Source of the DNA: Chitinophagales bacterium
GTDB taxonomy: Bacteria; Bacteroidota; Bacteroidia; Chitinophagales; UBA2359
Reading direction: 5' to 3'
Length of the DNA stretch: 30,913 nt
Assembly (NCBI GenBank): GCA_049608825.1
Contig: JBMYXW010000001.1
Location: forward strand, 2,789-33,701
Shown: positions 21,101-30,864 of the stretch, piece by piece
How positions within the stretch are numbered: position 1 is the stretch's first letter
How the letters are laid out: every line of letters starts with the position of its first letter
Program-made: the position numbers and the translations under genes
Notes under the pieces: generated by a model
Told to the model about the DNA's origin: nothing
Database searches by the model: none
The model's input: only the letters and a program-made list of their open reading frames with translations

Positions 21101-22722
21101 CTAATTTCACTTGTAGTTTTGCATGGGCAGACTCTACAAATGTTGTTCAACAGTTCAGTTATTGTGATACCCCCACAAAAGATACTACTGTTTATTCTTT
21201 TTGGGTCAGCAATGGGTTGTGTGAAGTAGAGGATAGTTTGGTAGTCATCTTTGGAGAAGAAATGGAAGAAGGAGAACCATGTACTTTATCTATTTGCCCA
21301 CAAATAGAGGAGTTAATGGCGAACTTGAATACCCTTTCCTTGACTGTACCTTTTGAAAGGTCGAAAAAAGAAGTGAGTTGGGAAGAATTGGTTCAAGATG
21401 AAATTGACCTTATAGCGGAAGCAATAGGGATAGAAAAAAGCAAGATAGGAGAGGCACAGATTAGTTTTTTTAGCCTAAACTCTGACTGCAATCCTGATTA
21501 CTACCAAATCATAGGAAATCAAGTTATTTACAATAATTCTGATTCTTGTTATATCTATATGGGACAAGATGAACTGACCTATACACTTAGTTTTCCTTCA
21601 TGTGGTACAGTAACTCGAAGTGTAAAGATAGAGCTTCTTTGCCCTAAATTTGAAGTTCAAGGATTAGATAGTGATTGCCTAACTGCTTCTTTCCAACTTT
21701 CGGATTTAAGTATGAGTATTTCTTCTCAAAACACATTGAATCACTCTGAAATTTCTGCATTGGGATGGTCTGCTGAATGGAAAATTGAAGAATTGGATGA
21801 TGTTTGGAGAGACGAAGATAGTGCTCCTATTTTCTTAGAACCCAATACAGATTACATCGTATTGGTACGCATGGTAAAAGCGGATACTCAACCTCTCACC
21901 CCTATTTTTCATGGCAGTTATGCCGAAACCTGTGGAGCTTCTATTACAACTCCTCCTTTGGACGGAATGCCAGTAAGTATTATTGAGCGATGTTTGGAAG
22001 ATGGAGGAGTGGAATTGACAGCAATAGTAGAAAGTTCTGATGCTATTGACGACTTTGTTATGGAGTGGTCAACAGGAGAAACAATACGGCAAATCATTGT
22101 CTATCCACCTTTTGACGAAAATTATTGGGTCAATATTTTGCGAATTAGTGATGGATGTATAGGAATAGACTCTGTTTCAGATATTGGTCCTCCCGATGTA
22201 TTTGTTGAATACACCGATGCAAGTCGATGTGTGGCTACGATTGGGGTTAGAAATACGATTCCTCAAAGCATTACTTGTCACAAACAACCGATTCCCGAAG
22301 AGGATTGTTGGTGGAATCCAACCGAACAAGCCTACAAATGTGAAATCAATCTGCTTGAAACAACTTCTGATACTACTTATGTGGTAGTCAATGACTTCAA
22401 AGGCTGTGAGAACAGTGTGAAACTATTCAGATGCCAACCCGATATTCGTGTAATCAAACCAAACCCTTCTAAACGATTGTTTACCATAGAATTAACAGGT
22501 ATTCCTATCAAAACACCAATTCATTATTATGTTTACAGCATAGATGGTCGAATGGTTATGGACTCCGAAAATATGCGGGATTCGGGCAGCCAACCTTTGG
22601 AGAATTGGCGGACGCTGAATATTGATTTGGACGAGCGTTTTGTGAGTGGAATGTATTTTGTACAGTTTTTTGTGGAGGGTGTGTCAGAGCCTTTGGTAGC
22701 GAAATTGTTGAAGCAGGAATAG
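9196..22722 (+). CDS. Giant (4508 aa) multidomain T9SS type A sorting-domain adhesin: signal peptide, LRR, PPC-like, beta-helix, SprB/PKD-like Ig repeats, cadherin-like Ig, L-type lectin, choice-of-anchor L, CBM-like domain, CTD
   Basis: Sec signal MNKTTTLYLYLLLLLLSFNVNFASA. Motif-recognisable domains are listed as separate features. The C-terminus is KPNPSKRLFTIEL...YSIDGRMV...SGMYFVQF...KLLKQE. Confidence 0.92.
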   Translation: MNKTTTLYLYLLLLLLSFNVNFASAFVSPLMSDNSLNSREFVMSPIPSSPPPQIQINSWAANHTVLKSWQPIPKPKGQFLMFPPSCIEADSLELVAFYNATGGDDWTDNSGWLVDDVSEWFGVTLSVDGCGVAELNMFIDINTGNNLVGNIYDFNLSNLEILNLKINQLTGEIPNFNLPSLEVLWLGRNTLTGDIPNFDLPNLKVLSLDFNALTGEIPNFDLPNLEALALYDNALTGEIPNFDLPNLEYLGLQYNLLTGEIPNFDFPNLETLYSYDNALTGEIPNFNLPNLERLGLSDNALTGEIPNFDLPNLNYLVLSDNELTFAGLVPHVQNYNTNSNFTTLFYAPQATIPLLLSNNTLYVEVGGNLSNNHYTWYKDGIEIPNMPVDGDSSWVVTESGNYYVEVTNDSITNPSISVQNLVLVSDELFVQVNSPNDNCLDATSLDPLMVAVYGSYSNVGATIEGSDLLPDCFNDNTLDNTVWFTFTGDGNAYNISTTDCSASSTAMSNTQMAIFEGGNCNSLSEVDCSEDIEVGTDLFSAITLPTTNGTEYYLMVDGNGGNSGDFCLDVSLVETCSSDLGGTIWVTTTDDNGDDDNPTVGSLRAAIKCANETEGANDIHFNLTGTAPFVFQPTIEYPSLIDSSTIIDATTQSNFSLGDVELDGSMLDLVNGLEILGNDCSIYGLYIHSFPSYGIFVEESNNVQIGGDESEHHGNVISNNGTQTSESSSFGGGLRIVDCENVTIYNNKIGTDVNGLTGFGNISSGITITNGSNFFIGGSGDNQGNIISNNLSYGIWGNLNDSDIQGNKIGTDISGTIDLGNGLEGININGVNLSIGGSNINEGNLISGNDQGGIRIVNFSENITITGNLIGVNINGDEPLNNDGAGILIFWGNNILIGGNTNLASNILNDPISLDGGDNITVQGNKMGVDIQGEALLGNSQTHGIGVSPGAQNVLIGGNNSSQANIIGGHTTAGIILFIDGTTGDFPSDIEMKGNFIGTDITSTIDLGNNIGISGHLQNNNNIIGGLLEGEGNTIAFNNTAIRFYENGTGIEMRQNNIFCNNKTYDFSELIDVSNIPNPPIIVEATTTTLTGTAEVGATIEIFVQDHTLCSGNTTCQGNYLATVMVDASTGEWSYEGAFTIGDIITTTATNSSNNTSEFSACSQICPKINPVIAGETFFCEGETITLTANDFSDFTAKYIWSTGETEQGISINTGGTYTVTVTDGGICSGTASIEVIQNSNPFAEILAGDEVFCSGTGLDIFVQIPSNSTSVWSNGDEAQITTIELGGIYTVTVTNENNCSTTSSVFIEELPQPNPEIVGDFNFCEGKNTILSLTEVYVDYLWSNGSIDSNIEVSENGVYTVSVSDGNICVGIASVEVVANEIPTLIISSSNGTLLCTGDTLSLTANSNATDVEYIWSNGTSGQEIEITEGGDYTVTVKDSNGCSNIASITIDTSPSPSPSIDGELGFCEGGNTVLSTGNAYSSYLWSTGEQGFSIEVTEAGDYGLTVTNANGCSGQKEVSVIENELPVVFIEGESTLCDPSILLNVEPSNEDFTYQWSTDVGATSQEIIVNTIGTYTVTVTDFNGCSATDEHQVDVCIEGCDVVADFILQDTICTSVALTIEELLTESTTTGGEWQQTYLDGTPVVVTDDFLIFPEVGTYTITYFVESPSDPNCNDTDTKIIYAGEPDFPSWSTEGDNYEICETNLPIAVFPDNEGGYWCCGDFGNCKATDESCFTIIDGQMYFDPIGNSSAVESYDLYHITTFEKCSSTIKKELSIYAQPAPPEVNPSTITLCENEILDVFIFMTAPFQYSDQLFTFNVYNENDELLIEGISPNDDMVDLSNLLTSIGTYTFLVRSVNGTCESEAVEVSIFVEGCQDCPDELFIFSATCLDEFGQSTITIFPIDTDDNYTVTAGGIELGENVFEFQSGSDVTVMLTSITTDCSSSALIEIPTDVPVLQLNNEASQVTICGAGDIILAPMGAGEGATYNYYLDPNAIIPATPASGSVWVNSEIVGQRIIYIIATTAEGCESAPLAVSTYSYENIAVSNITTLCNESDNSYTVFFTISGGNGVYTVDGASAPDNFTSAPIAQGTGYSFVIDDDSSLPSCEPLTLSGLSPDCTDGISAVDDFASTETGESVIIDILENDSGCNLSIGGIVVAPSCGEITTINPETGEVTYLADTDTQCTEDTFVYEVIDCNGATDEATVTIFISQETALAVEVIRNCEGAEETGTYELEVIITGGAPPFTISGSINEVLPNYGNTFAIISDTESYTINVVDANGDEFYREGGKIPCVKFAPCLDSIAINGNFCPTENPTVTLIAVTIPSSFDFSYEWSTGENTQTIEVSEVGFYSVTVLNTDGCGGMDSVEIIEDCPQDCEPLIFTDSNTQLNGNAQANTENANCWTLTDESTSGQAGSIWSQQKVLLNEPFVLTAFLSTNLDGSDGFTFTLHNDDSALTALGSNGEGLGYGPNLTDAVTATIQPSIAVELDTHENPTLDSEPTFNHIAVNENGNMESVTTPIEISSFENGQSHELKVVWNPTTFELIYYFDGEIKGIYEKDIVTEIFGSENSIYWGFTAATGNSVNTHQICDVQMTNCATELTAIDDTYTTCSNTSFTFNPVENDLGDCIEITGLIVSGNDITLEQIDNDITYTPTTDFAGTIDFEYIITDCFGQMDTALVTIVVLDTTPIEAVNDTVYIFNTQDSPSFTFNILENDIGENIILIADSFNPPTSIGDFPEVSEFGEINFIPAPSIEGTFTIEYEIQGQCDQIDIATVTLIITEESIPNSNADELVDIILDDCISFQNAVINCADVAIAQFDTTITEGIYNNPFTKGIALTTGSVELGLYSPNTSGSAGLSNGASGDADLETEQFQTFNACALEFDFTANTESISFRYWFGSEEYPEWVNTQFSDRMGIFINGTGFDSLTNIALVPDTTIPVGVDGINHLNNTSYFVENEANALPQYDGFTIPLEAITNNLTIGETYHIKIVIADVNDAIYDSGLFIEANTESNDFELIVSEDTTINAGESTQLSAEVLNTTAEVTYTWTPTETLDNPNIANPIASPTETTTYSVTATIGGCEKTNTVTVTVNSIPCEGLSVGILPSIDPYVCFGENIGGTTSIIAEGFTLREGDVLGYVLQDENGNILAYRTEDANFIFEEIEDGQYNTEYFVLAIAGTDNGSGEVDLTGECVDKSNLFPVVFLEKINVSTAIVCENNEQFIEVTLEGGLPAYSDSETYELIGYESLIVEGETVRIGPFEGMEILEVLDGNGCSVSTEVNLYQLTISLDNLEGEDVTNNTIILDVGDARQLWGNVNNSENPSINYTWSPIAGFGQLLNINATEPDTITHTLTVDIDDFCSLQAEVTVIILPTAYDCLDAIVPCNNEPIVYNSNGKGEEEILGTDKVGCLVEGEHYSTWIRLQIDNTTSDGEHLTFTITPNDGQRDYDFNLYKADDCNDLEGITRCSFAPTSMESASTGLNEVDTDDEDTDNGFARYVAVTGGEIYYLLIDNFGGNAQGFTLEWTNPNVFFNCDTIPECYADAGTASSPKDTYCSTESYIISVEGEYEGEDFNQAYFFLDEDSNIVSQPNSQTSGTYYFAYLNSQEIIDFNEYNTLADIGTAILEGACMDTSNIASFEIIASPPKPTFTSISCDQEAFYIEVEESDAIIRWYSNVALNDMIGEGNPFPVTEAGTYYVTQTLNSCESEAQEVVVTEADFVCLGECPENLVQNFSFEERVGCPSVSGQIERSAFWSFVPGITNAPDYFNNCNATTNNYETPQNIVGTQIPFEGTAYAGLMAYNQANNTLINREYIQTELTAPLIEGQSYCVSMQVSLAENSQFAIDNLGLYFSGNQITSNSIEGFLEPQIVHQGFLEDTDEWMEVKGTFTATAGLQYLSIGNFALNNGVKEVNSDGNGEAYYYIDMIEIRPTNEIGSLSVFDMDNNQLNTESNTIVICEGETICLDAEVTNTNFTCSFAWADSTNVVQQFSYCDTPTKDTTVYSFWVSNGLCEVEDSLVVIFGEEMEEGEPCTLSICPQIEELMANLNTLSLTVPFERSKKEVSWEELVQDEIDLIAEAIGIEKSKIGEAQISFFSLNSDCNPDYYQIIGNQVIYNNSDSCYIYMGQDELTYTLSFPSCGTVTRSVKIELLCPKFEVQGLDSDCLTASFQLSDLSMSISSQNTLNHSEISALGWSAEWKIEELDDVWRDEDSAPIFLEPNTDYIVLVRMVKADTQPLTPIFHGSYAETCGASITTPPLDGMPVSIIERCLEDGGVELTAIVESSDAIDDFVMEWSTGETIRQIIVYPPFDENYWVNILRISDGCIGIDSVSDIGPPDVFVEYTDASRCVATIGVRNTIPQSITCHKQPIPEEDCWWNPTEQAYKCEINLLETTSDTTYVVVNDFKGCENSVKLFRCQPDIRVIKPNPSKRLFTIELTGIPIKTPIHYYVYSIDGRMVMDSENMRDSGSQPLENWRTLNIDLDERFVSGMYFVQFFVEGVSEPLVAKLLKQE
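9655..10182 (+). repeat. 66-bp (22-aa) leucine-rich repeat array, 8 units, plant-like GxIP type, preceded by an LRR N-cap
   Basis: Consensus FDLPNLExLxLxxNxLTGEIPN. The 24-mer ttaacaggtgagattccaaatttt is exact at 9700, 9832, 9898, 9964, 10030 and 10096, with 2 mismatches at 9766. N-cap DSLELVAFYNATGGDDW...W..DDVSEWFGVT starts at 9463. Confidence 0.95.
10950..12400 (+). other. Right-handed parallel beta-helix region of ORF2 with a CSLREA-like N-terminal motif
   Basis: GSLRAAIKCAN at 10996, then repeated NxIxGNxIGTDxxG...GN...G and IGG....GNxISGN motifs. Confidence 0.8.
15570..17550 (+). other. Three cadherin-like/tandem-95 Ig repeats flanking the lectin domain
   Basis: AVDDFASTETGESVIIDILENDSG, AIDDTYTTCSNTSFTFNPVENDLG and AVNDTVYIFNTQDSPSFTFNILENDIG match the A.DD...........L.ND pattern. 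Confidence 0.7.
16345..16980 (+). other. L-type (legume-like) lectin domain in ORF2
   Basis: QLNGNA...LT....GQAGSIWSQQKV...DGSDGFTFTLHN...GEGLGYG...SIAVELDTHEN...HIAV...HELKVVWNP...YFDG...YWGFTAATG...HQI. Confidence 0.85.
17680..18225 (+). other. Choice-of-anchor L domain in ORF2
   Basis: GIALTTG...GDADL...NACALEFDF...ISFRYWFGSEEYPEWVNTQFSD..GIFING...NIALVP...INH..N...QYDGFT...GETYHIKIVIADVND..YDSGLFIEA. Confidence 0.85.
20362..20980 (+). other. Galactose-binding-like/CBM-like jelly-roll domain in ORF2
   Basis: NLVQNFSFEE..GCP...APDYFNNC...GTQIPFEGTAYAGL...REYIQTELTAPL..GQSYCVSMQVSLA...EWMEVKGTFTA...YLSIGNF...AYYYIDMIEI, a common Bacteroidota secreted-protein module. The ligand is unknown. 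Confidence 0.65.
22432..22722 (+). other. T9SS type A C-terminal sorting domain of ORF2
   Basis: CQPDIRVIKPNPSKRLFTIEL...YSIDGRMV...SGMYFVQF...KLLKQE, paralogous to the ORF1 CTD. Confidence 0.8.
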
Positions 22723-22723
22723 A

Positions 22724-23293
22724 TTACTTTTTCTTCTTCAATCTATCTGGATTCGCTGCCAAAAACGCCTTCCAATCCTTTGCCTTATTGCCTCCAATCG
22801 GCAAAGGAGACTGCAATTGAAGGTGGTGACAAACTGCCACACCAAGCGCATCCGTAGCATCAAAATATTTGGGCATCGCATCAATTTTCAGCGTATGCTT
22901 CAACATTGCCGAAATCTGTTCTTTTGAGGCATTGCCATTTCCAGTAATGGATTGTTTGATTTTTCGAGGAGCATATTCCTGCACATTCATGCCGTGCATC
23001 ATTCCCGCTGCAATAGCCACACCTTGCGCCCTGCCCAGTTTGAGCATGGACTGAACGTTCTTTCCAAAAAAAGGAGCTTCAATCGCCATTTCATCAGGCT
23101 CATGAGTATCTACGAGAAAAGTTATTTTTTCGTAGATAACCTTCAATTTGGTGTAATGATCAGGATATTTATTGAGTCTCACTACTCCAATACTGTGAAT
23201 TTTCAAGTCGTTTTTGCCGAGTACTTCAATCACCGCATACCCCATTACGACCGTACCAGGGTCTATTCCTATGATTTTCTTATTTTTGTCCAT
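22724..23293 (-). CDS. ruvC: Crossover junction endodeoxyribonuclease RuvC
   Basis: IIGIDPGT..MGYAVIE; EMAIEAPFFGKNVQSMLKLGRAQG; EYAPRKIKQSITGNGNASKEQI; DATDALGVAVCH. These are the canonical RuvC motifs. Confidence 0.97.
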   Translation of the reverse strand: MDKNKKIIGIDPGTVVMGYAVIEVLGKNDLKIHSIGVVRLNKYPDHYTKLKVIYEKITFLVDTHEPDEMAIEAPFFGKNVQSMLKLGRAQGVAIAAGMMHGMNVQEYAPRKIKQSITGNGNASKEQISAMLKHTLKIDAMPKYFDATDALGVAVCHHLQLQSPLPIGGNKAKDWKAFLAANPDRLKKKK

Positions 23294-23346: not shown

Positions 23347-24333
23347 TTGTCCAATTCTCATTCCAAAAAGAACCTAACTCGATTCCTAAAGATACTCATT
23401 TTTAGTGGTTTGGTTTGGGCGATTTACCAACAAATTGCCCGCCAAGAAAACCTTGAATCCATTATTGGGGAGTTTTTAAGCTCTTTCAAACCTAAAAATA
23501 CAGCTTGGTTAATAGGAGTTTGTAGTTTTACCTTTGTCAATTGGGGCATTGAAGCCCAAAAATGGCGGCAACTCCTCTCCAAAATGGAACGTCTTTCTTT
23601 CAAGGATGCTTTTCGAGCCATTCTATGTGGCATTACCCTTTCGCTTTTTACACCCAATCGAGTGGGAGAATATGGTGGTCGAGTGTTGATATTGCAGCAT
23701 GCCAACAGGTTGAAGGCGATTGCTGTTACTTTGGTAGGTAGTTTGAGTCAAATTATTGCGAATGTAACATTGGGAGCGATTGGTTTTTTGAGCTTTGCAG
23801 GCATTTATTTGAAATGGAATTTGTGGCAAATGGAATGGGCGATTGCAGGAGCAGTGTTGATGGTTGTAGCACTTTTATTGATTTATTTCCACGTCCAAAA
23901 AGCGGAGCAGTGGATAGGTAAAATTCCTTTTTTTAGGCGTTATAAAAGCCATTTCAAACCCATTGAAGCCTATTCCCAACGTGAATTGGCGCAAGTTTTG
24001 GGTTGGTCGTTTTTGCGAAACCTTGTTTTTACACTTCAATACATTGGCTTGTGTTGGGCGTTTAATATGGAAGTCGGACTTGTCACAGCTTGGGTAGTGG
24101 TAAATACCATTTTTTTCGTGCAACTTTTCATCCCAAGCATTGCCCTTATAGAGTTGGGCATCCGTGGAAACCTCGCTTTGTTTTTTTGGGGATATGTCAC
24201 GACCAATCACCTCGCCATCATTGCCGCAACGTTTAGTCTTTGGTGGATTAATTTGATGATGCCTGCTATTGTAGGTTGGTGGTTGATCAGTCGTTTGAAT
24301 GTATTGGAGGGTTGGGGAATTAAAAATGGTTGA
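23347..24333 (+). CDS. Lysylphosphatidylglycerol synthase TM-domain (UPF0104/flippase-like) membrane protein
   Basis: Multiple TM segments with NWGIEAQKWRQLL, GITLSLFTPNRVGEYGGR and IPSIALIELGIRG motifs. TTG start, divergent from ruvC. Confidence 0.85.
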   Translation: MSNSHSKKNLTRFLKILIFSGLVWAIYQQIARQENLESIIGEFLSSFKPKNTAWLIGVCSFTFVNWGIEAQKWRQLLSKMERLSFKDAFRAILCGITLSLFTPNRVGEYGGRVLILQHANRLKAIAVTLVGSLSQIIANVTLGAIGFLSFAGIYLKWNLWQMEWAIAGAVLMVVALLLIYFHVQKAEQWIGKIPFFRRYKSHFKPIEAYSQRELAQVLGWSFLRNLVFTLQYIGLCWAFNMEVGLVTAWVVVNTIFFVQLFIPSIALIELGIRGNLALFFWGYVTTNHLAIIAATFSLWWINLMMPAIVGWWLISRLNVLEGWGIKNG

Positions 24334-24372
24334 ATGGTTTTATTGTTGAATGCTTGAATGCTTGAATGGTTG
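24325..24372 (+). repeat. Octamer tandem repeat (AATGSTTG)x6 overlapping the stop codon
   Basis: aatggttg aatggttt tattgttg aatgcttg aatgcttg aatggttg. Confidence 0.8.
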
Positions 24373-24419
24373 AATACAATGTTAGGGAAAGTTCTTGACA
24401 TTCAAAAGGGCGTAGCCCA

Positions 24420-24555
24420 GACCCTATTTGTAGCCAAATAAATGGAATTGAAACTTTAGGAGCGTAGCTTCGGCACGGTTAAACAATGGGTTGTATGTGG
24501 TGTCGAAGCTACGCTCCTAAGATTAGTGTTTACGATTTTTTCTACAAATAGAGTC
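24420..24555. repeat. Nested palindromic REPIN/MITE-like element
   Basis: Inner arms ttaggagcgtagcttcggcac (24456-24476) / gtgtcgaagctacgctcctaa (24500-24520) match 20/21. Outer arms gaccctatttgtag (24420-24433) / ctacaaatagagtc (24542-24555) match 13/14. Confidence 0.85.
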
Positions 24556-24617
24556 GCAACGATGCTGCTGAAATATTAAACAATTTCTGTTATGCTGTAC
24601 CGAATTGTTTTCAGAAT

Positions 24618-24645
24618 CATACAACCATACAGCAATAAACCAATT
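24618..24645 (-). repeat. Inverted copy of the octamer array
   Basis: The reverse complement aattggtttattgctgtatggttgtatg matches 24333-24360 at 22/28 positions. Confidence 0.6.
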
Positions 24646-24734
24646 CTTTTTTATGTTGTCTAATAAAAAAATCTATCCTTCAATGAAAAAATGGATATGG
24701 CTCAGAATAGCAATTAAAATTTAAAAATAAACAG

Positions 24735-25661
24735 ATGAAAAATCTAACTTTCTGCAATAAGTTCCTCGACTACCTTAAATTATTTTTTCGCAGTTTTTTG
24801 GGCTTAAAATTCGCTGTATTATTGGCAGCTTGTTCCTTTATTTTGATGAGTAGCAGTGTAGCAGTTGGCAATAAAAATACAAGCCAAAAAAGTGATGCTT
24901 GTGGTGCATACATAGATTTGAATACTTTTCAAATGGGCGAAACGCTGACCTACAAAGTTAACTACAAATGGTCTGCCATCAATATGACCGCAGGAAAAGC
25001 GACTTTTCATCTCAACGAAACCACCTACAAAGGGAAGCCTTCTTATCATGCAAAATGTGTGGGACGCACGGCTTCTGCTTTCAATTGGTTCTACAAGGTG
25101 AACGATAATTATGAGACCTACATCGACAAAGAAAGTATGCGTCCTCTCAAATTTTCTTTGGACATCAATGAAGGGAAATACTACGAAAAAACCCAATACG
25201 AATTTTACCACGATAGTCACACAGCGAATGTCAATTTTCGCTACAAAAAAGGAAAGCTGAAAACGGAGAATGAAGATGTTGATATTCCGACTTGCGCCCA
25301 AGATATTGTTTCCATTCTGTACTATGCTCGTTCCTTAGACTTTTCCAAAATCAAAGAAGGTGAAACGGTTCATATCGACCTGTTTACAAGCGAAAAAATC
25401 AAACCTGTTTCTTTCCGTTATCTTGGCAAAGAAGTCATCAAAACCAAAATCGGCAAAGTTCGATGCCTCAAATTGTCTCCTTTCTTGTTGGAAAGCGATG
25501 CTTTTGGTGATGGTGGTGGTGATAAAATGCTTATCTATGCCACTGACGATGCCAATAAACTTCCTGTTTTGGTAGAGTCTCCAGTTGCGATTGGTAAGGT
25601 GAGGGTGCATTTGACAGATTATAAAGGGTTGAAGCATCCGATGACGGCGAAGGTAGATTAA
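24735..25661 (+). CDS. DUF3108 domain-containing secreted/outer-membrane protein
   Basis: N-terminal hydrophobic stretch followed by GETLTYKVNY.W..AGKATF, FNWFYKVNDNYETYID...P.KF..DINEG.Y, QDIVSILYYARS and KMLIYATDDANKLPV, the Bacteroidota DUF3108 pattern. Confidence 0.8.
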   Translation: MKNLTFCNKFLDYLKLFFRSFLGLKFAVLLAACSFILMSSSVAVGNKNTSQKSDACGAYIDLNTFQMGETLTYKVNYKWSAINMTAGKATFHLNETTYKGKPSYHAKCVGRTASAFNWFYKVNDNYETYIDKESMRPLKFSLDINEGKYYEKTQYEFYHDSHTANVNFRYKKGKLKTENEDVDIPTCAQDIVSILYYARSLDFSKIKEGETVHIDLFTSEKIKPVSFRYLGKEVIKTKIGKVRCLKLSPFLLESDAFGDGGGDKMLIYATDDANKLPVLVESPVAIGKVRVHLTDYKGLKHPMTAKVD

Positions 25662-25691
25662 ATCTATGTGTTTGTGTTGGTAATTGTATTT

Positions 25692-25900
25692 GTAGAGACG
25701 TTTTACTAAAACGTCTAATAGATATTTAGGTTGGTATTTGTTTAAATGCCTTTATGTTGACGTTTAGGTTGGCATTTGTTTAAGTGCTTTTATATTGATT
25801 GTGTAGGCGTTTTACTAAAACGTCTAATAGATATTTAGGTTGGTATTTGTTTAAGTGCTTTTATATTGATTGTGTAGACGTTTTAGTAAAACGTCTCTAC
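25692..25900. repeat. GTAG-class REP palindrome array (BIME/REPIN-like) with repeated ~37-bp linkers
   Basis: gtagagacgttttactaaaacgtct (25692-25716), a degenerate copy at 25803-25825, and an exact reverse-complement copy at 25876-25900. The linker tttaggttggYatttgtttaaRtgcYtttatRttga occurs three times. Confidence 0.9.
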
Positions 25901-25924
25901 GTGGTTGGATAAAAATGGATTTTG

Positions 25925-25932
25925 TAATTTTG
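25925..25932 (+). promoter_or_regulatory. Candidate -7 promoter element (TAATTTTG) for the hydrolase
   Basis: TAnnTTTG match 18 nt upstream of the ATG at 25951. The -33 element is weak (GTTG at 17-nt spacing). Confidence 0.55.
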
Positions 25933-25950
25933 CAGCAAACATCCTCCAAA

Positions 25951-26895
25951 ATGACCACTTTCAAACGCATCTTAGTTCTTTTCGTCTTGCTGATTGTAGC
26001 AGCTTACGGCTATATATCATGGACACTCTCCAATCAAATTTTGTTTCCCAACAGTTCGATGGAACTCACCAAATCGAGAATAAAAAACAACTGGGGTAAA
26101 GACTTCAATGCCATAATGGACTCGCTACCCACACCCAAAGATTTCGCTGTCACCTCCTTCGATGGCATCCAAATCAAAGGCAAATATTTCCAAAAATCAG
26201 ATATCACCAATTGTGCCATCATCCTTGCACATGGTTGGACAGACACTTGGGCAGGTTCGCTGAAATATGTATCTGTATTGGAGGATTGTCAATGTGATTT
26301 GGTTTTTTACGACCATCGGGCGCATGGTGACAGTGAAGGCACGTATGCCACAGGTAGCATCAACGAATCCAAAGATTTACTCGCCTTGACTGAATGGGTA
26401 CAAAAAGAGAAAAACCTCACTGCAAAACAAATCGGATGGTTGGGCGCATCTTGGGGCGCAGCAGCCGTTTTGACGGCAGGAGCAGATTCCAAAAATGTGG
26501 CGTTTATCATTGCAGATGCACCTTTTCAAGATTGGTATTCTGCTATTTTTGAACGAGCCAACCGAGACTATGGTACCATTGCGTCCATTCTTTCGGCAGG
26601 GGTGATGGGCGTGGTCAATTGGCGGGCAGGAGTAGATTATACCCAAGCAAGCATTGTAGAAGCAGCTTCCAAAATTGAAGAACCCGTATTGTTGATTCAC
26701 TCTCAAGCGGATAGCGAAACAAATTCTCAACAATCGGTCAACATCTCCAAAAAACTAAAACCCAACAACTTTACTTTTCATCACTTGGATTGGGGCAATG
26801 ACCATACACGAGATGTATTGTTCAATACCGAAGAATACAAAGGTTTGGTGAATGAATTTTTGAAGGGAGTGGAAGGGGATTTTTTGAGGGAGTAG
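25951..26895 (+). CDS. Alpha/beta hydrolase with an N-terminal membrane anchor
   Basis: LAHGW oxyanion region, YDHRAHGDSEG, nucleophile GASWG, HSQAD acid and GNDH histidine. The start is reassigned from 25870 (inside the REP array) to ATG 25951 (MTTFKRILVLFVLLIV). Confidence 0.9.
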   Translation: MTTFKRILVLFVLLIVAAYGYISWTLSNQILFPNSSMELTKSRIKNNWGKDFNAIMDSLPTPKDFAVTSFDGIQIKGKYFQKSDITNCAIILAHGWTDTWAGSLKYVSVLEDCQCDLVFYDHRAHGDSEGTYATGSINESKDLLALTEWVQKEKNLTAKQIGWLGASWGAAAVLTAGADSKNVAFIIADAPFQDWYSAIFERANRDYGTIASILSAGVMGVVNWRAGVDYTQASIVEAASKIEEPVLLIHSQADSETNSQQSVNISKKLKPNNFTFHHLDWGNDHTRDVLFNTEEYKGLVNEFLKGVEGDFLRE

Positions 26896-26952
26896 ATGAG
26901 ATTAAAAAAAACATTTTGGATACCTAAGAAATTATACTTGTCAAAGTCAGCC

Positions 26953-27483
26953 TTATGCTATTTGTATCTTCAATTTTTTACCTAAACCTTCAATAATTTT
27001 TTGGAGTGTAGAAAGTTCTACATCTAATTTACTATTTTCTAATTTAGAGATAAAGCTCTTATTCGTTCCGCTTTTTTCTGCCAATTCCTCTTGCGTTAAA
27101 CCTATTTCTTTCCTTGTAGATTTTATCAATAATCCTATGTCAATGTTTCTATTTTCATCTAATACACTGTTTTCAAACAATACAATAGGGTCTAAATCAA
27201 AATGGTAAAATACAGTCTCTCCCTTCATATTTCTGGAATAAACACCTGTATTTTTCCACCCTATTGTAGTTCCGATGATTTCTATTTGCTTAAATTCTTC
27301 CATGTTTTGCATCAATATATAAGCAGGGTGTTTTTCGGAAAAATTCTTTTGGTTTTTGAAAAAAGTTTCAAAATCAATGATTCTCGATTCACCATTGTCA
27401 AATAAACAAGAAACTTCATATTTATTTAAGTCGTTGATTTTTAAAATTTTTGGTATGCTTTTTAGTTGTTTCATTGTCTTCAA
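26953..27483 (-). CDS. DUF2442-like N-terminal domain fused to an XRE-family HTH; putative antitoxin/regulator
   Basis: N-terminal KILKI....YEVSCLFDNGESRIIDF...GTTIGW...DLDPIVLFE; C-terminal IKSTRKEIGLTQEELAEKSGTNKSFISKLEN...ELSTLQKIIEGLG. The start is either TTG 27483 (4-nt overlap with the upstream stop) or ATG 27474. Confidence 0.8.
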   Translation of the reverse strand: MKTMKQLKSIPKILKINDLNKYEVSCLFDNGESRIIDFETFFKNQKNFSEKHPAYILMQNMEEFKQIEIIGTTIGWKNTGVYSRNMKGETVFYHFDLDPIVLFENSVLDENRNIDIGLLIKSTRKEIGLTQEELAEKSGTNKSFISKLENSKLDVELSTLQKIIEGLGKKLKIQIA

Positions 27484-27713
27484 TTATTTGGATTAAATTC
27501 ATTCCATGTCTCAATAAGGAAATCTTGATTTTGTCTTGCCCACTCTATTACCCTTTTTCTTTGTTTGTTAGGTAGTTTACCTTGGTAAGTTTCTAAAGTG
27601 TTTATCTCTATTAATTCTTCGTATTCATTATATTGTGCATGAAAATGAGGCGGCAAGTGGTCATTAAAATAAATGAGAATTTTAATAGATTGTATCAAGT
27701 GAATTGTTGGCAT
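27480..27713 (-). CDS. DUF4160 domain protein, putative type II toxin
   Basis: MPTI...IKILIYFNDHLPPHFHAQYNEYE..IEI...G.LP.KQ.K.V.EWA, the typical DUF4160 signature. It is coupled to the DUF2442-XRE gene. Confidence 0.88.
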   Translation of the reverse strand: MPTIHLIQSIKILIYFNDHLPPHFHAQYNEYEELIEINTLETYQGKLPNKQRKRVIEWARQNQDFLIETWNEFNPNN

Positions 27714-27731
27714 TTAATTGTCTTTTGTTTT

Positions 27732-27762
27732 CAAAGATAACATTTTACAAGCGCAAAGCAAA
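27732..27762 (-). promoter_or_regulatory. Bacteroidota primary-sigma promoter for the DUF4160/DUF2442-XRE pair
   Basis: On the minus strand, TTTG (27762-27759), a 19-nt spacer and TATCTTTG (27739-27732) form a perfect -33/-7 consensus 18 nt upstream of the ATG. Confidence 0.8.
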
Positions 27763-27763
27763 A

Positions 27764-28756
27764 CTAAAACAGCCTATCAAAAAACCAAAACGAAGCCAAA
27801 ATCCCCACACCATAAACGGCTGTTTTGAACGCATAATGGGAGAAATTTTTGAAGCGGTGGGCGAAGAATCGAAGCACTGCAAATTGCAGCACCAAAACTG
27901 TCATTAAAAACAAAAGCTGTCCTATTTCTACACCGATATTGAAGAACAACAAAGCACTTACCAAATTACTTTGCGGCAAACCAATCTCACCCAAAACAGA
28001 CGCAAAACCAAATCCATGCAGCAATCCAAACGAACTCGACACCAAAACAGGATAACGATAAGTCAGCGATGTTTGAGTAGAATGATGGTGGATGATTTCG
28101 TAGCACAAGAAAATAATACTCAATGCGATACAGGCTTCAACAGGTGCTATGGGCAACTGTACCCAGCCCAAAGTCGACAGCACCAAAGTAATAGAATGTG
28201 CGAATGTAAACCCCGTAATTGTCCAAAACAGCTTCCTCGAAAATCCTGCAATAATCAACAAACAAACCAAAAATAACAAGTGGTCTATTCCTGCCCAAAT
28301 ATGTTCTATTCCCAATCTGGTATATTGCTTTATGACCTCAAAATGTTTGGGGGCTGTGGGAATGAAAAAGCTGTTTTTTTGAGGACTGATGATGAAGGTT
28401 TGTAAGGCTTCGTTTTGGAGTTGGAGCTGGACGATGGTGGTGATAGCGGGATTGAAAAGCGGAAATTTGATTTCGATATTTTGACCCTTCAATTCAGAAG
28501 TGGACGTTTGGTAAAGGTGAGAACTGAGATAACCCGATTCTTTTTGGTAAACGGTTTGGGCGGTTTCGTTTTCGGTGTAGTTTTCTGGGAGAATGAGGTA
28601 GGGTAGATTGTTGTTTGTTAGGGTGTTGGGAATATTGAGTTGGACGCTGAGTGAAAAATCGGTTTGCTCTTGGATTTGGATATAGAGAGGGCGGCTTTCG
28701 TGGGCGAAGGCTGAAAGATGGAGGGTTAGGAGGGCGATGAATAGGAAGTGTTTCAT
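27764..28756 (-). CDS. HupE/UreJ family membrane protein (HupE_UreJ_2 type) with a signal peptide and soluble N-domain
   Basis: GIEHIWAGIDHLLFL; TGFTFAHSITL; VEACIALSI; FGLLHGFGFASVL; LFFNIGVEIGQL. Confidence 0.92.
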   Translation of the reverse strand: MKHFLFIALLTLHLSAFAHESRPLYIQIQEQTDFSLSVQLNIPNTLTNNNLPYLILPENYTENETAQTVYQKESGYLSSHLYQTSTSELKGQNIEIKFPLFNPAITTIVQLQLQNEALQTFIISPQKNSFFIPTAPKHFEVIKQYTRLGIEHIWAGIDHLLFLVCLLIIAGFSRKLFWTITGFTFAHSITLVLSTLGWVQLPIAPVEACIALSIIFLCYEIIHHHSTQTSLTYRYPVLVSSSFGLLHGFGFASVLGEIGLPQSNLVSALLFFNIGVEIGQLLFLMTVLVLQFAVLRFFAHRFKNFSHYAFKTAVYGVGILASFWFFDRLF

Positions 28757-28760
28757 TGGT

Positions 28761-29858
28761 CTAAAGCACTATTTCATTGCCAAAATTCAATATCTCCAAA
28801 TTTGTAGGTACAGCTAATTTCAAGCCTTTTGCCAATAACCCCTGTTTATTCAATGAAGTATTGAGGAGTTCATAATTTGGGAGGAAAATATCAGAGATTA
28901 AATGAATATTATCACATATTTTCAATTTTGGAGTGCTGTTTATGGAATACAGCCTGTGAATCAAATATTTTCCTTTGTTGTCATGGATGAATGTTAATTC
29001 CTCAGTACTTAGATATATAGGATTGTGTTTTTCAAATGGGTGATTTGTCGATTTGGCATCACTAAAAATAAGGGTGTTGTCATTCCGTATTATTTCAAAA
29101 TCGAAAGGTTCAAACATCTCACGACTTTTGTTCAACCATTTGAAATTCTTTATCTTAGATTCTTTTTTTTGAGTCGAAAAATATTGGTAAAGTAGTTCTT
29201 CACCAGTCTTACCAATTTCTTTAAGCAGTTTGTTAATTCGTGCAAAATCCTTTGGTCTTGGAATTTTGCGTTTAGATGTTTTTCTTTCACCTATCTGAGA
29301 AGCCACTTCTAATTCTTCTATATATTCGAGGTTTGCTTTGGTTGTTAACTGGTTTACAAATTTGGCTATCGTATTATAATGAGTATCCTGTTCTCCTATT
29401 TTCAACCTTCCATTAGCTAGTTGATTTAGATTTATCCCCAAACGAGATAGTTGTGAGAGTTCATTGGAGTTTTGATTTAATAAGATGGTGATGATTTCTT
29501 TATTATCTAAAGCAAACCAAATCAAATACCAATCAATATTTGTATTTGTATTCGCAATATTTCTAATCTTTTTTCCAATACTAACAATATTATGGGGAAG
29601 GTTCTTTTGCTCTGTTTTTGTACCTACATTTATTGCAGGGCTTCTATTATTATTGATGAATTTTAGAAATAGGAATCCCTCGTAAGATTTGTTCTTATAA
29701 ATCAATTGAGAAGGATAGGTTTTTTTTTCATGGGGCAAGTGGCTAAGTGTAGAAAAATACAATCCAATATGGGTTAGATTGTTATCTGCAAGTCCAAGGT
29801 CTCCTTTTTTTAATTTTTTTATTCCTATTTTTCCAAAAGCTAATTCGTAAATACTCAT
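28761..29858 (-). CDS. Putative restriction endonuclease with a C-terminal DUF3883/NO VEIN-like PD-(D/E)xK domain
   Basis: IGKTGEELLYQYF...WLNKSREMFEPFDFEI...FSDAKST...LSTEE matches the G..GE...W...P(Y/F)DF...(D/E)xKST...(L/I)S..E pattern. It starts 1 nt after the methyltransferase stop. Confidence 0.65.
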   Translation of the reverse strand: MSIYELAFGKIGIKKLKKGDLGLADNNLTHIGLYFSTLSHLPHEKKTYPSQLIYKNKSYEGFLFLKFINNNRSPAINVGTKTEQKNLPHNIVSIGKKIRNIANTNTNIDWYLIWFALDNKEIITILLNQNSNELSQLSRLGINLNQLANGRLKIGEQDTHYNTIAKFVNQLTTKANLEYIEELEVASQIGERKTSKRKIPRPKDFARINKLLKEIGKTGEELLYQYFSTQKKESKIKNFKWLNKSREMFEPFDFEIIRNDNTLIFSDAKSTNHPFEKHNPIYLSTEELTFIHDNKGKYLIHRLYSINSTPKLKICDNIHLISDIFLPNYELLNTSLNKQGLLAKGLKLAVPTNLEILNFGNEIVL

Positions 29859-29859
29859 T

Positions 29860-30864
29860 TTATATTTGGATTAATTTTTTGTCAAACAAATAATGTAGGA
29901 TAGAATAAACTGTATTTACACTTACTGCATTGCCTGCTTGTTTGTAAAGTTGATGATTGCTAATTCCTGCCTTTGAAGCACTTAAATAAAACTCCTTATC
30001 AAAACCTTGCAGCTTCAAAGCCTCAAGAGGAGTGAGTTTTCTTATTTTGTGTTTTGCCTGTTCTTCTTTAGAAAAATCTTTTTTTAGGTATTCAGTAGGA
30101 TTCTCATGGGTCAAAAATTCATCTGAATAATAATTGTCTTGACAAGCTCTGTGCATTTTAACCATTGTAGCAGTTAATGGTCTTGCAATCAGTTGGTTAA
30201 TTTCAGAATTTGATTTAAAATTCTTGCTGCCATTTGCCAAAATCGTTGGTTTGATTCTTTCAGAAAGGTAGTATTTTTTATCAACTTCTTTTTCTAACAG
30301 ATTGTCCAATACTGTGTCGTATTTTTTTAAACTTGTTGAGCCATTTAATTTTTTAGCTCCATTTTTTACAAAATCACTTTTCAAATGTACGAATCTATTG
30401 CCTAAATCTTTACGGATGGCAAAGAAGAAAATTCGCCTTCTATTTTGGGGAAGCCCAAAATCTGCCGTATTGAAAACATCGGATGTAACATAATAACCTG
30501 CATCTTCTTCAAGTGAGCGGATAGTTTCTTTGAGTGTACGTCCTTTGTCGTGTGTCTTGACGTTTCTTACATTCTCTAATAAAACATATTTCGGTTTTTT
30601 TACCAATAAAATATCAATTATGGAATAAAAAAGATTGCCTCTATTGTCTTCAAATCCTTTTTGTTTTCCCATCATGCTAAAAGCTTGACAGGGAAAACCA
30701 CCTGTAAGCAAATCAAAATCTGGTAGTGCAGTGATGTTGTCTTTAATTGAGGTAAACTCTTGAATATCTCCTATCTCGATTTCATTTGAAGTATCAAAAT
30801 TTGCTTTGTAGCTTATGTTTGCATATTTGTCTTTTTCAGAAAACCCAACACATTGTGAGTTCAA
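29860..30864 (-). CDS. dcm: C5 DNA (cytosine-5) methyltransferase, 5'-truncated (motif I absent), possibly a pseudogene
   Basis: Motif IV GGFPCQAFS, VI LLENV, VIII PQNRRRIF, IX RKLTPLEALKLQGF and X YKQAGNAV are present. There is no FxGxGG, and an in-frame TAG lies at 30894-30892. Confidence 0.85.
   Translation of the reverse strand: MNSQCVGFSEKDKYANISYKANFDTSNEIEIGDIQEFTSIKDNITALPDFDLLTGGFPCQAFSMMGKQKGFEDNRGNLFYSIIDILLVKKPKYVLLENVRNVKTHDKGRTLKETIRSLEEDAGYYVTSDVFNTADFGLPQNRRRIFFFAIRKDLGNRFVHLKSDFVKNGAKKLNGSTSLKKYDTVLDNLLEKEVDKKYYLSERIKPTILANGSKNFKSNSEINQLIARPLTATMVKMHRACQDNYYSDEFLTHENPTEYLKKDFSKEEQAKHKIRKLTPLEALKLQGFDKEFYLSASKAGISNHQLYKQAGNAVSVNTVYSILHYLFDKKLIQI

What the first reader, a model, noticed from the sequence alone, without database searches (positions are those of the whole stretch)
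23347..28756. Gene-scale codon polarity: C/A-ending codons at 5' ends, G/T-ending codons at 3' ends, on both strands
Seen: the hydrolase starts acc act ttc aaa cgc atc...ccc aca ccc...gtc acc tcc ttc and ends ggt ttg gtg aat gaa ttt ttg aag gga gtg gaa ggg gat ttt ttg agg gag. The HupE gene on the minus strand starts cac ttc cta ttc atc gcc ctc cta acc ctc and ends gtt tat ggt gtg ggg att ttg gct tcg ttt tgg ttt ttt gat agg ctg ttt. DUF3108, the flippase-like gene and the 3' end of ORF2 show the same pattern, and it continues into the flanks (G/T-rich after stops, C/A-rich before starts). It follows gene orientation, so it is not replichore skew. The AT-rich TA and R-M genes appear to lack it. 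Inference: a selected or mutational transcription-linked signal. Possible mechanisms are 5'-unstructured / 3'-Rho-avoiding mRNA design, loose end-to-end fold-back of each transcript, or self versus foreign gene discrimination.
Basis: partly seen in the sequence, partly recalled or inferred. Interest (0 to 1): 0.62.

Follow-up and report, generated by a model that had tools for sequence, protein, structure and literature searches.

The report
Base-composition marks at both gene ends
In this uncultured Chitinophagales bacterium almost every native gene starts with a stretch poor in G and ends with a stretch poor in C and rich in G, written in silent codon positions; this is an unusually strong, G-substituted version of a gene-end codon bias already known in prokaryotes, and what it does is still open.

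Summary
At amino-acid-corrected silent sites, G is 0.42-0.54x expected and A 1.3-1.5x in the first 10 codons. In the last 10 codons C is 0.46-0.54x, G about 1.6x, T 1.1x and A 0.83x. 77% of genes show the 3' shift (p=5e-155), on both strands. It sits at gene ends, not across whole genes: about -100 to +150 nt around starts and -100 to +50 nt around stops. It resets at every cistron. AT-rich, probably acquired genes lack the 3' mark.

The 3' mark does not depend on neighbour orientation, stop codon type or predicted terminators. It is not explained by anti-Shine-Dalgarno pairing, YC dinucleotides, local folding or head-tail complementarity.

It is graded among relatives. It is strongest and longest (30 codons) in this genus, near zero in some sister lineages, and +0.22 in E. 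coli.

Best reading: selection on mRNA composition where ribosomes load and leave. The 5' part is the known SD-less initiation region. The 3' part is an exaggerated form of the known C-avoidance before stops, possibly Rho-related.

The scan has noted keto/amino skew flips on other DNA, but those follow the DNA strand or the operon.

The parts
27764..28756 (-). HupE/UreJ-family gene, the most polar gene body in the genome
   Evidence: Body GC3 skew is -0.69 in the first half and +0.38 in the second, rank 1 of 1293 genes. At 4-fold sites the first half has C 0.56 and G 0.05, the second half C 0.10 and G 0.32.
28325..28756 (-). HupE codons 1-144 (signal peptide plus unassigned N-terminal domain): a C3-rich, G3-starved block
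   Evidence: In 50-codon windows C3 is 18-27 against about 10-12 expected, and G3 is 1-5 against about 6-8 expected from the amino acids. The block ends where Pfam PF13795 starts, at residue 145.
27875..28324 (-). HupE_UreJ_2 membrane domain (residues 145-294): G3-rich, C3-poor in patches
   Evidence: Windows 151-200 and 226-275 have G3 16 against 10 expected and C3 3-4 against 10 expected. Pfam match E=4.5e-44. Homologues in G001, G002 and G003 at 41-44% identity keep the same C-rich then G-rich order.
25951..26895 (+). alpha/beta hydrolase gene with a G-starved head and a C-starved, G-rich tail
   Evidence: 4-fold sites: first 30 codons C 0.40, G 0.07; last 30 codons C 0.11, G 0.33. Pfam Peptidase_S15, Hydrolase_4 and Abhydrolase_1.
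24735..25661 (+). DUF3108 gene with the same head and tail marks, followed by a G/T-rich flank
   Evidence: 4-fold sites: first 30 codons C 0.33, G 0.00; last 30 codons C 0.00, G 0.50. The flank at 25676-25825 has keto skew +0.35.
23347..24333 (+). LPG_synthase_TM-like ('flippase-like') gene. Head and tail marks are present, but the body polarity is not
   Evidence: 4-fold sites: first 30 codons C 0.33, G 0.08; last 30 codons C 0.00 (9 sites). The body from the first ATG runs the opposite way, +0.51 then -0.15.
22633..22722 (+). last 30 codons of the giant T9SS ORF2: a C-free, G-rich tail
   Evidence: 4-fold sites: C 0.00, G 0.36. The + strand at 22601-22750 has GC skew +0.43.
22727..22816 (-). 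last 30 codons of ruvC: tail mark
   Evidence: 4-fold sites: C 0.10, G 0.30. Second-half pos3 GC skew is +0.53 against +0.03 in the first half.
26953..27483 (-). AT-rich (28% GC) HTH_3 gene without the 3' mark
   Evidence: Last 30 codons at 4-fold sites: G 0.00, C 0.12. Pfam HTH_3.
28761..30864 (-). AT-rich (31-32% GC) NOV_C-domain gene and C5 DNA methylase gene without the 3' mark
   Evidence: Last 30 codons at 4-fold sites: G 0.20 and C 0.20 in the first gene, G 0.00 and C 0.10 in the second. Pooled Fisher p=1.0. Pfam assignments.

Best explanation
SHOWN. Each native ORF carries two zones of biased composition on the sense strand, anchored on its ends.
- A G-starved, A-enriched zone runs from about -100 to +150 nt around the start codon.
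- A C-starved, G-enriched zone runs from about -100 to +50 nt around the stop codon and peaks at -20 to -1.
Both are written mainly in synonymous sites. In tandem gene pairs with short spacers both marks are still present.

INFERRED. The marks come from selection on the mRNA at the places where ribosomes load and leave. They do not come from replication or from transcription-coupled mutation. The start zone is the known Shine-Dalgarno-independent initiation region of Bacteroidia.

The stop zone is an exaggerated form of the C-ending-codon avoidance reported before stop codons in prokaryotes, with G rather than A taking the place of C.

My preferred sub-mechanism, about 0.3 on its own, is that the selected property is the C/G content of bare single-stranded RNA as read by Rho-type factors. 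The sense message around the stop has C/G of about 0.4, which makes it a poor Rho substrate. Its complement has C/G of about 2.5, so any antisense or read-through transcript entering a gene from its 3' end is an ideal Rho substrate. The confidence figure below is for the general statement (selected, ORF-end-anchored, mRNA-level). It is not for the Rho step.
For: - Anchoring and reset per cistron. The skew ramps from about -90 nt, plateaus at codons -9 to -2, and falls about threefold within 20 nt after the stop. Tandem genes with 20-120 nt spacers still have C 0.12-0.13 and G 0.24-0.26 in their last 30 nt.
- Nucleotide level, not just codon level. C is also avoided at codon position 1 through Leu CTN to TTR and Arg CGN to AGR, and in the first 40 nt of 3' flanks. 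Hexamer enrichment is almost purely compositional, x0.63 per C and x1.10 per G.
- Not amino-acid driven.
- Not C-to-T deamination. G gains +0.17 while T falls at 4-fold sites.
- Weak in AT-rich genes and stronger in long genes.
- Overridden by a downstream start within 20 nt. G falls to 0.19-0.20 while C stays at 0.13, so two selective demands compete.
- Slightly stronger before close convergent neighbours (C 0.09, G 0.30), which fits the antisense version.
- The same kind of signal exists at lower amplitude in E. coli (+0.22) and other Bacteroidota (+0.11 to +0.23).
- C-ending codon avoidance near prokaryotic gene ends is published (PMC6892556).
- The head zone matches published F. johnsoniae initiation regions (PMC6847099).
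Against: - No direct functional data. No RNA run holds this organism.
- Synonymous divergence in tails equals that in bodies (0.477 vs 0.475 identical 4-fold sites, 44 orthologue pairs), so constraint is not visible at the site level. The sample is small (109 tail sites).
- No YC-specific depletion, which Rho's primary site might predict.
- Rho is present in all 119 high-quality relatives whether or not they carry the mark, and Rho ORF length shows no obvious relation to it.
- The tight peak right at the stop codon suits a ribosome-centred mechanism at least as well as a Rho-centred one.
- The large differences between close relatives (G109 +0.51 vs G101 +0.03) are unexplained.
Confidence: 0.6

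Rival explanations
1. Ribosome-centred function. The last 10-30 codons are written to slow or hold ribosomes before release. This could work through slowly decoded NNG and NNT codons or through G-rich mRNA touching the 30S platform or anti-SD. The benefit would be better termination fidelity, fewer collisions at the stop, or time for the C-terminal domain to fold while the last ~30 residues sit in the exit tunnel.
For: - The peak sits at codons -9 to -2 and the reach is about 30 codons, which is roughly a ribosome footprint plus a queue, or the length of the exit tunnel.
- It is independent of neighbours and terminators.
- It is stronger with TGA and TAG than with TAA after controlling for GC and length (t=5.1 and 3.4), and stronger in long genes.
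- NNG and NNT rise while NNC and NNA fall in every codon family.
- A preprint claims selection for strong rRNA-mRNA pairing in the last 20 nt in 82% of bacteria (10.1101/2020.07.24.220731).
- Genomes with canonical anti-SD have a higher median effect (0.33 vs 0.10).
Against: - No anti-SD specificity. Scrambled or reversed probes gain as much as the real anti-SD. After removing composition, hexamer residuals do not track anti-SD duplex energy (rho +0.05, the same as scrambles). GGAGG is no more enriched than GGGGG or GAGAG.
- Bacteroidia ribosomes sequester the anti-SD (PMC7797042).
- The canonical vs variant anti-SD contrast gives only p=0.052 without phylogenetic correction, and there are clear exceptions (G042 +0.35; G094, G101 and G047 near zero).
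- C is also avoided at codon position 1, where even the G-ending CTG falls, and after the stop codon. Decoding speed cannot explain either.
- The stop-codon effect may simply be the same local G pressure acting on the stop codon itself.
Confidence: 0.25
2. Avoidance of mRNA secondary structure around the stop codon. This is the explanation proposed for the universal 3'-end codon bias. Here it would be achieved by removing C rather than by adding A.
For: - Predicted folding of 40-nt windows is weakest around the stop (-3.0 kcal/mol against -4.6 in bodies).
- Native tails fold 0.2-0.6 kcal/mol more weakly than the same peptides recoded with body codon usage, in windows from -90 to -30.
- C-ending avoidance near prokaryotic gene ends has been attributed to this cause (PMC6892556).
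Against: - Over -60 to +20 the native sequence (-11.6 kcal/mol) is not significantly different from recoding with body usage (-11.9, p=0.23).
- It folds no more weakly than schemes that avoid C without adding G (-11.25) or that avoid G instead (-11.09). A twofold compositional shift therefore buys almost no predicted unfolding, and the added G works against it.
- A-ending codons, the published universal signature, fall here (0.83x).
Confidence: 0.12
3. A strand-asymmetric mutational bias localised at ORF ends. For example, a repair or damage asymmetry tied to where ribosomes and RNA polymerase uncouple. It would accumulate slowly in resident genes.
For: - The same synonymous divergence in tails and bodies.
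- Purely compositional hexamer pattern with no motif.
- No functional signature found in any specific test.
- Weak in AT-rich, probably recent genes.
- Large differences between close relatives, as if a trans-acting enzyme had been gained or lost.
Against: - The skew at unconstrained sites drops from about +0.55 (third positions of the last 10 codons) to +0.19 within 20 nt after the stop, and it resets at every cistron. DNA-level processes have no known way to sense a stop codon.
- Ribosome-polymerase uncoupling would act downstream of stops, not upstream.
- The change is C to G with T falling, not the C-to-T and A-to-G pattern of single-strand deamination.
- G enrichment is cancelled where a downstream start lies within 20 nt, which looks like competing selection.
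Confidence: 0.12
4. Loose fold-back of each transcript (A/C-rich 5' end pairing with the G/U-rich 3' end), or use of the polarity to tell self genes from foreign genes.
For: Heads pair better with tails (-19.4 kcal/mol) than with body segments (-16.9), as composition alone predicts. AT-rich genes lack the tail mark.
Against: - Own head with own tail is no better than head with another gene's tail (p=0.44).
- Pairing would occlude a start region that must stay open for SD-less initiation (PMC6847099).
- G is removed from tails that lie close to a downstream start.
- No reader for such a self mark is known. Weak marks in acquired genes are expected from amelioration alone.
Confidence: 0.04

Closest known systems
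Universal 3'-end codon usage bias (Zahdeh & Carmel 2019, PMC6892556)
   Same: C-ending codons are under-represented over the last 10-15 codons of prokaryotic genes. The effect is synonymous and anchored on the stop codon. I see it in E. coli too (C3 0.28 to 0.20).
   Different: Here G gains rather than A: G is about 1.6x and A 0.83x. The reach is about 30 codons plus about 40 nt of flank. The amplitude is about 2.5 times that of E. coli. The shift hardly changes predicted folding.
Selection for strong rRNA-mRNA (anti-SD) interaction in the last 20 nt of coding regions (Tuller-lab preprint 10.1101/2020.07.24.220731)
   Same: G-rich sequence just upstream of stops, independent of downstream genes, with a non-monotonic relation to an expression proxy.
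   Different: No specificity for the anti-SD complement. The organism belongs to a group whose ribosomes hide the anti-SD (PMC7797042). C loss is the dominant term.
Shine-Dalgarno-independent translation initiation regions of Bacteroidia (Baez et al. 2019, PMC6847099)
   Same: An A-rich, G-depleted, weakly structured region around the start. Here G is 0.09 and A 0.43-0.45 at -20 to -1. Silent sites of the first 15 codons are more conserved than bodies (0.62 vs 0.475).
   Different: Nothing essential. G depletion at silent sites reaches codon 40-60, and further in genes with an N-terminal hydrophobic segment.
Rho utilisation sites ('C>G bubbles'; PMC6144790, PMC6407284)
   Same: Stretches of 80-130 nt defined only by C/G content and lack of structure. 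Gene heads and the antisense of gene tails have C/G of 2 or more, while tails have about 0.4.
   Different: No YC-specific signal. No experimental link. Every gene carries the marks rather than selected terminators.
Replication-associated GC/keto skew
   Same: It involves the same bases (G and T against C and A). An ordinary DNA-strand component does exist in gene bodies.
   Different: The end marks follow the coding strand on both DNA strands and flip within single genes.

Membership tests
Replichore (replication-associated) strand skew | Skew follows the DNA strand whatever the gene orientation | tested here: not met
   Genes on the + and - contig strands show the same head (-0.35, -0.36) and tail (+0.55, +0.58) skews on their coding strand. 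Only the body component behaves as strand-level (r=-0.28 between opposite-strand neighbours).
Prokaryotic 3'-end codon bias (PMC6892556) | C-ending codons under-represented in the last 10-15 codons | tested here: met
   C3 observed/expected is 0.46-0.54 in the last 10 codons and 0.64-0.65 at -20 to -11. Every NNC codon falls.
Prokaryotic 3'-end codon bias (PMC6892556) | A-ending or AT-rich codons preferred towards the stop | tested here: not met
   A3 observed/expected is 0.83. GC3 is kept, 0.42 in the tail against 0.39 in the body, because G replaces C.
Prokaryotic 3'-end codon bias (PMC6892556) | The bias lowers mRNA folding around the stop | tested here: inconclusive
   Small gains of 0.2-0.6 kcal/mol in some 40-nt windows. 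No significant gain over -60 to +20.
Anti-SD pairing at the end of coding regions (10.1101/2020.07.24.220731) | Enrichment of anti-SD-complementary sequence beyond what composition gives | tested here: not met
   Scrambled and reversed probes gain equally. The residual hexamer enrichment is unrelated to anti-SD duplex energy.
Anti-SD pairing at the end of coding regions (10.1101/2020.07.24.220731) | Signal independent of a downstream gene's start | tested here: met
   Same or stronger before convergent neighbours and long spacers.
SD-less Bacteroidia initiation region (PMC6847099) | No G-rich SD peak; an A-rich, G-poor region upstream of and just inside the ORF | tested here: met
   G 0.09 and A 0.43-0.45 at -20 to -1. 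G4 is 0.083 in codons 1-10.
Rho-related composition code (rut-like / anti-rut) | C-rich, G-poor unstructured stretch of about 80 nt (rut) or its opposite | tested here: met
   The composition criterion alone is met. Tails have C 0.09-0.11 and G 0.28-0.30, and their antisense has the reverse.
Rho-related composition code (rut-like / anti-rut) | Rho-dependent change of transcript ends | not testable with these tools
   No RNA data for this organism. Rho is encoded in G000 and in nearly all relatives searched.
Transcription-associated deamination asymmetry | C-to-T and A-to-G gain on the non-template strand, continuous along the transcript | tested here: not met
   T falls while G rises at tail 4-fold sites. 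The skew resets at each cistron and drops at the stop codon.

The most novel reading that the evidence does not exclude
Some Chitinophagales lineages have evolved a tunable, orientation-locked composition code that marks the 3' boundary of every resident ORF, and this genus shows it most strongly. The mark is a C-starved, G-rich stretch of sense RNA about 130 nt long. A trans-acting single-strand RNA reader would read it.
Probability: 0.25. Interest if true: 0.72.

Novelty: new variant of a known kind. Interest (0 to 1): 0.5.

Why it matters
What shapes codon choice at the 3' end of genes is an open question. The 2019 survey (PMC6892556) states there is no agreement on the main factor. This genus offers one of the strongest signals I could measure, with C halved and G nearly doubled at silent sites over 30 codons. 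Here anti-SD pairing, a downstream SD and local folding each fail an explicit test, which narrows the options. The signal differs sharply between close relatives (+0.51 vs +0.03 within one family). That makes a comparative search for the responsible factor feasible, along with simple recoding experiments. On the practical side, the 3' mark separates resident from recently acquired genes in these genomes. It also argues for adding end-specific codon tables when designing or predicting genes for Bacteroidota.

Tried and rejected
- Anti-SD pairing. Duplex energies against the real, variant, reversed and scrambled 16S tails all rise alike. Permutations of G4A1, G3A2 and G4T1 are equally enriched. 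The hexamer regression leaves no anti-SD residual. The 16S tail state across 18 genomes gave MWU p=0.052, uncorrected for phylogeny and with clear exceptions.
- Rho-specific YC depletion. All C-containing dinucleotides fall alike. Rho presence and ORF length across 121 genomes were uninformative.
- Local folding. Recoding experiments changed MFE by 0.5 kcal/mol or less.
- Fold-back and pairing with downstream sequence. Own vs other pairs are indistinguishable.
- Dependence on intrinsic terminators. Spearman rho is -0.02. There is only a weak difference in tandem pairs (p=0.015).
- Avoidance of re-initiation. ATG is not depleted in any frame, and start-likeness of internal ATGs is only slightly lower.
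- Amino-acid or hydropathy explanation. This gives a 10-15% effect only.
- Synonymous-rate test for constraint. Tail equals body, but power is low.
- Stop-codon dependence. It is present, but confounded with local G pressure.
- RNA-seq. No run holds this organism.
- tRNA repertoire. Only 21 tRNA genes are assembled.

Full report
WHAT IS IN THE WINDOW.
The span 23347-28756 holds four genes of normal composition (39-43% GC). They are an LPG_synthase_TM-like membrane protein (23347-24333, +), a DUF3108 protein (24735-25661, +), an alpha/beta hydrolase (25951-26895, +) and a HupE/UreJ-family protein (27764-28756, -). AT-rich genes (28-32% GC) are interleaved with them: an HTH_3 protein (26953-27483, -), a NOV_C-domain protein (28761-29858, -) and a C5 DNA methylase (29860-30864, -). 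At 4-fold-degenerate sites the four native genes pooled have C21 and G2 of 49 sites in their first 30 codons, and C4 and G15 of 44 sites in their last 30 (Fisher p=4e-6). The AT-rich genes show nothing of the kind.

GENOME-WIDE TEST.
The window lies on contig C1 of a 4.2-Mb, 961-contig, 69%-complete assembly at about 39% GC. Close relatives are labelled Chitinophagales/Bacteroidia MAGs. I called 2802 ORFs with a simple longest-ORF procedure.

At 4-fold sites the keto skew rises from -0.14 in the first gene decile to +0.12 in the last. This is mostly G against C, with GC skew going from -0.35 to +0.21.

In absolute coordinates the effect sits at the ends.
- In codons 1-10, G4 is 0.083 and A4 is 0.37.
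- In the last 10 codons, C4 is 0.089 and G4 is 0.342, against body values of about 0.22 and 0.17.
- The 3' ramp starts 30-40 codons before the stop.

77% of genes have a higher GC skew in their last 90 nt than in their body (Wilcoxon p=5e-155). Genes on either contig strand behave the same way.

After correcting each codon for its amino acid and codon box, observed/expected ratios in the first 10 codons are A 1.3-1.5, C 1.03-1.09, G 0.42-0.54 and T about 0.9. In the last 10 codons they are C 0.46-0.54, G about 1.6, T 1.1 and A 0.83.

WHERE EXACTLY.
I took genes with at least 240 nt of ORF-free flank.
- GC skew falls from 0 at -120 to -0.35 at -20 to -1 before starts, and recovers by about +80 to +150.
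- It rises from +0.14 at -120 to +0.46 at -20 to -1 before stops.
- After the stop it drops to +0.19, +0.09 and +0.03 over the next 60 nt.

The body in between is almost flat. With the ends removed, the second half minus the first half differs by +0.05 on average, and normalised z runs from -0.23 to +0.18 along the gene.

Gene bodies also carry an ordinary DNA-strand skew. Neighbours on the same strand correlate at +0.32 and neighbours on opposite strands at -0.28. This component is separate from the end marks.

WHAT THE 3' MARK DEPENDS ON.
It is present before tandem and convergent neighbours at all spacings, with one exception. Where the next start lies within about 20 nt, G falls to 0.19-0.20, because the start's G-exclusion wins, while C stays low at 0.13.

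It occurs with all three stop codons. It is stronger with TGA and TAG than with TAA after controlling for GC and length. That could be compensation for leaky stops, or the same local G pressure acting on the stop codon.

It grows with gene length, from tail skew +0.38 to +0.73. It is weak in genes below 36% GC (+0.18 to +0.27), and it has no monotonic relation to a codon-bias proxy for expression. It is unrelated to predicted hairpin-plus-T-run terminators (rho -0.02).

C is also avoided at first codon positions through synonymous Leu and Arg choices, where even the G-ending CTG falls. The effect is therefore at nucleotide level. A regression of hexamer enrichment shows it is almost purely compositional, x0.63 per C and x1.10 per G in the last 30 nt.

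MECHANISMS TESTED.
(a) Anti-SD pairing. The 16S tail of a same-genus genome is canonical (ACCUCC), while two relatives with little or no mark carry AUCUCC or AUCUCU. That lead did not hold up. Across 18 genomes the contrast is p=0.052 with clear exceptions. Scrambled probes bind tails as well as the real anti-SD. No anti-SD residual remains after removing composition. Bacteroidia ribosomes are also reported to sequester the anti-SD (PMC7797042).

(b) Local folding. Native tails differ by 0.5 kcal/mol or less from recodings that use body codon usage, or that avoid C without adding G.

(c) Fold-back. A tail pairs no better with its own head, or with its own downstream region, than with those of other genes.

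(d) Rho. The C/G ratio fits an anti-rut on the sense strand and a rut on the antisense. But there is no YC-specific depletion, and Rho is encoded everywhere.

(e) Re-initiation avoidance. ATG is not depleted.

(f) Mutation. The change is C to G with T falling, not a deamination pattern. It drops about threefold across the stop codon at unconstrained sites. In favour of mutation, or of only weak selection, synonymous identity between G000 and G003 orthologues is the same in tails (0.477) as in bodies (0.475). Heads are more conserved (0.62).

PHYLOGENETIC SPREAD.
I measured the third-position GC skew of the last 10 codons minus that of the body.

| Genome | Relationship | Difference |
|---|---|---|
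| G000 | this genome | +0.56 |
| G003 | same genus | +0.48 |
| G022 | same family | +0.43 |
| G010 | same family | +0.24 |
| other Chitinophagales families | same order | -0.05 to +0.51 |
| G109 vs G101 | one family (f18) | +0.51 vs +0.03 |
| G105 vs G015 | one family (f4) | +0.38 vs +0.08 |
| five other Bacteroidota | same class or phylum | +0.11 to +0.23 |
| E. coli K-12 | control | +0.22 |

Only in the window's genus does the mark reach back 20-30 codons. Elsewhere it is confined to about the last 10.

HupE.
This gene is the most polar gene body of 1293 tested. Its first 144 codons have C3 at about twice the amino-acid-corrected expectation and G3 at about a fifth of it. The switch falls at residue 145, where the HupE_UreJ_2 membrane domain begins. 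Homologues at only 41-44% identity in three same-genus genomes show the same C-rich then G-rich order. There is a genome-wide link between hydropathy and silent-site choice: C3 is 1.15x in hydrophilic stretches and 0.87x in membrane-like stretches. That link is far too weak to explain HupE, so HupE remains unexplained.

COMPARISON WITH WHAT IS KNOWN.
The 5' mark is the published SD-independent initiation region of Bacteroidia (PMC6847099). Avoidance of C-ending codons in the last 10-15 codons of prokaryotic genes is published and was attributed to structure avoidance (PMC6892556). A preprint attributes G-rich gene ends to rRNA-mRNA pairing (10.1101/2020.07.24.220731). This genome fits the first description in kind. 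It differs in four respects:
- the replacement base is G, and A falls;
- the reach is about 30 codons plus flank;
- the amplitude is about 2.5 times that of E. coli;
- both published explanations fail explicit tests here.

I therefore class it as a new variant of a known kind. Earlier notes of this scan describe keto/amino skew flips on other DNA. Those follow the DNA strand or a whole operon, whereas this pattern is tied to ORF ends. Those notes prompted the neighbour-correlation test.

VERDICT.
My best reading is selection on mRNA composition at the sites where ribosomes load and leave (0.6). Within that reading I give about 0.3 to a Rho-type reading of the C/G content and about 0.25 to a ribosome-centred role. 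Structure avoidance and mutation each get about 0.12.

Noticed in passing
L047-L080 (16S loci of Chitinophagales genomes): 8 of 32 genomes have a variant 16S 3' tail (AUCUCC or AUCUCU instead of ACCUCC). They are scattered over six families, so the anti-SD has decayed repeatedly in this SD-blind order.
   Followed up: partly
window 27764-28756 (-); L181-L183: The HupE homologues in same-genus genomes are only 41-44% identical, while RuvC next door is 86-97% identical. The gene carries a 144-residue N-terminal extension with no Pfam match.
   Followed up: partly
window 26953-27716 and 28761-30864: Two AT-rich (28-32% GC) blocks flank HupE. One holds an HTH_3 gene plus a small ORF. The other holds a NOV_C-domain gene plus a Dcm-type C5 methylase. 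They look like recent insertions.
   Followed up: no
genome-wide (G000 vs L007-L026 of G003): 4-fold sites of the first 15 codons are more conserved between orthologues (0.62 identical) than gene bodies (0.475). This points to site-level constraint on silent positions at gene starts.
   Followed up: partly
genome-wide (G000): Silent-site choice depends on local hydropathy. C3 is 1.15x expected in very hydrophilic stretches and 0.87x in membrane-like stretches, with G3 and T3 moving the opposite way.
   Followed up: partly
genome-wide (G000); window + strand: Gene bodies carry an ordinary replichore-type GC3 skew (neighbour correlation +0.32 on the same strand, -0.28 on opposite strands). The window's + strand has positive GC skew almost throughout, as a leading strand would.
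   Followed up: partly
window 24334-24645 and 25662-25900: G/T-rich octamer repeats, a long hairpin, and a thrice-repeated short palindrome with linkers fill the gaps after the first two genes.
   Followed up: no
genome-wide (G000): Out-of-frame stop triplets are about 1.3x enriched in the last 20 codons, as expected from the loss of C.
   Followed up: yes
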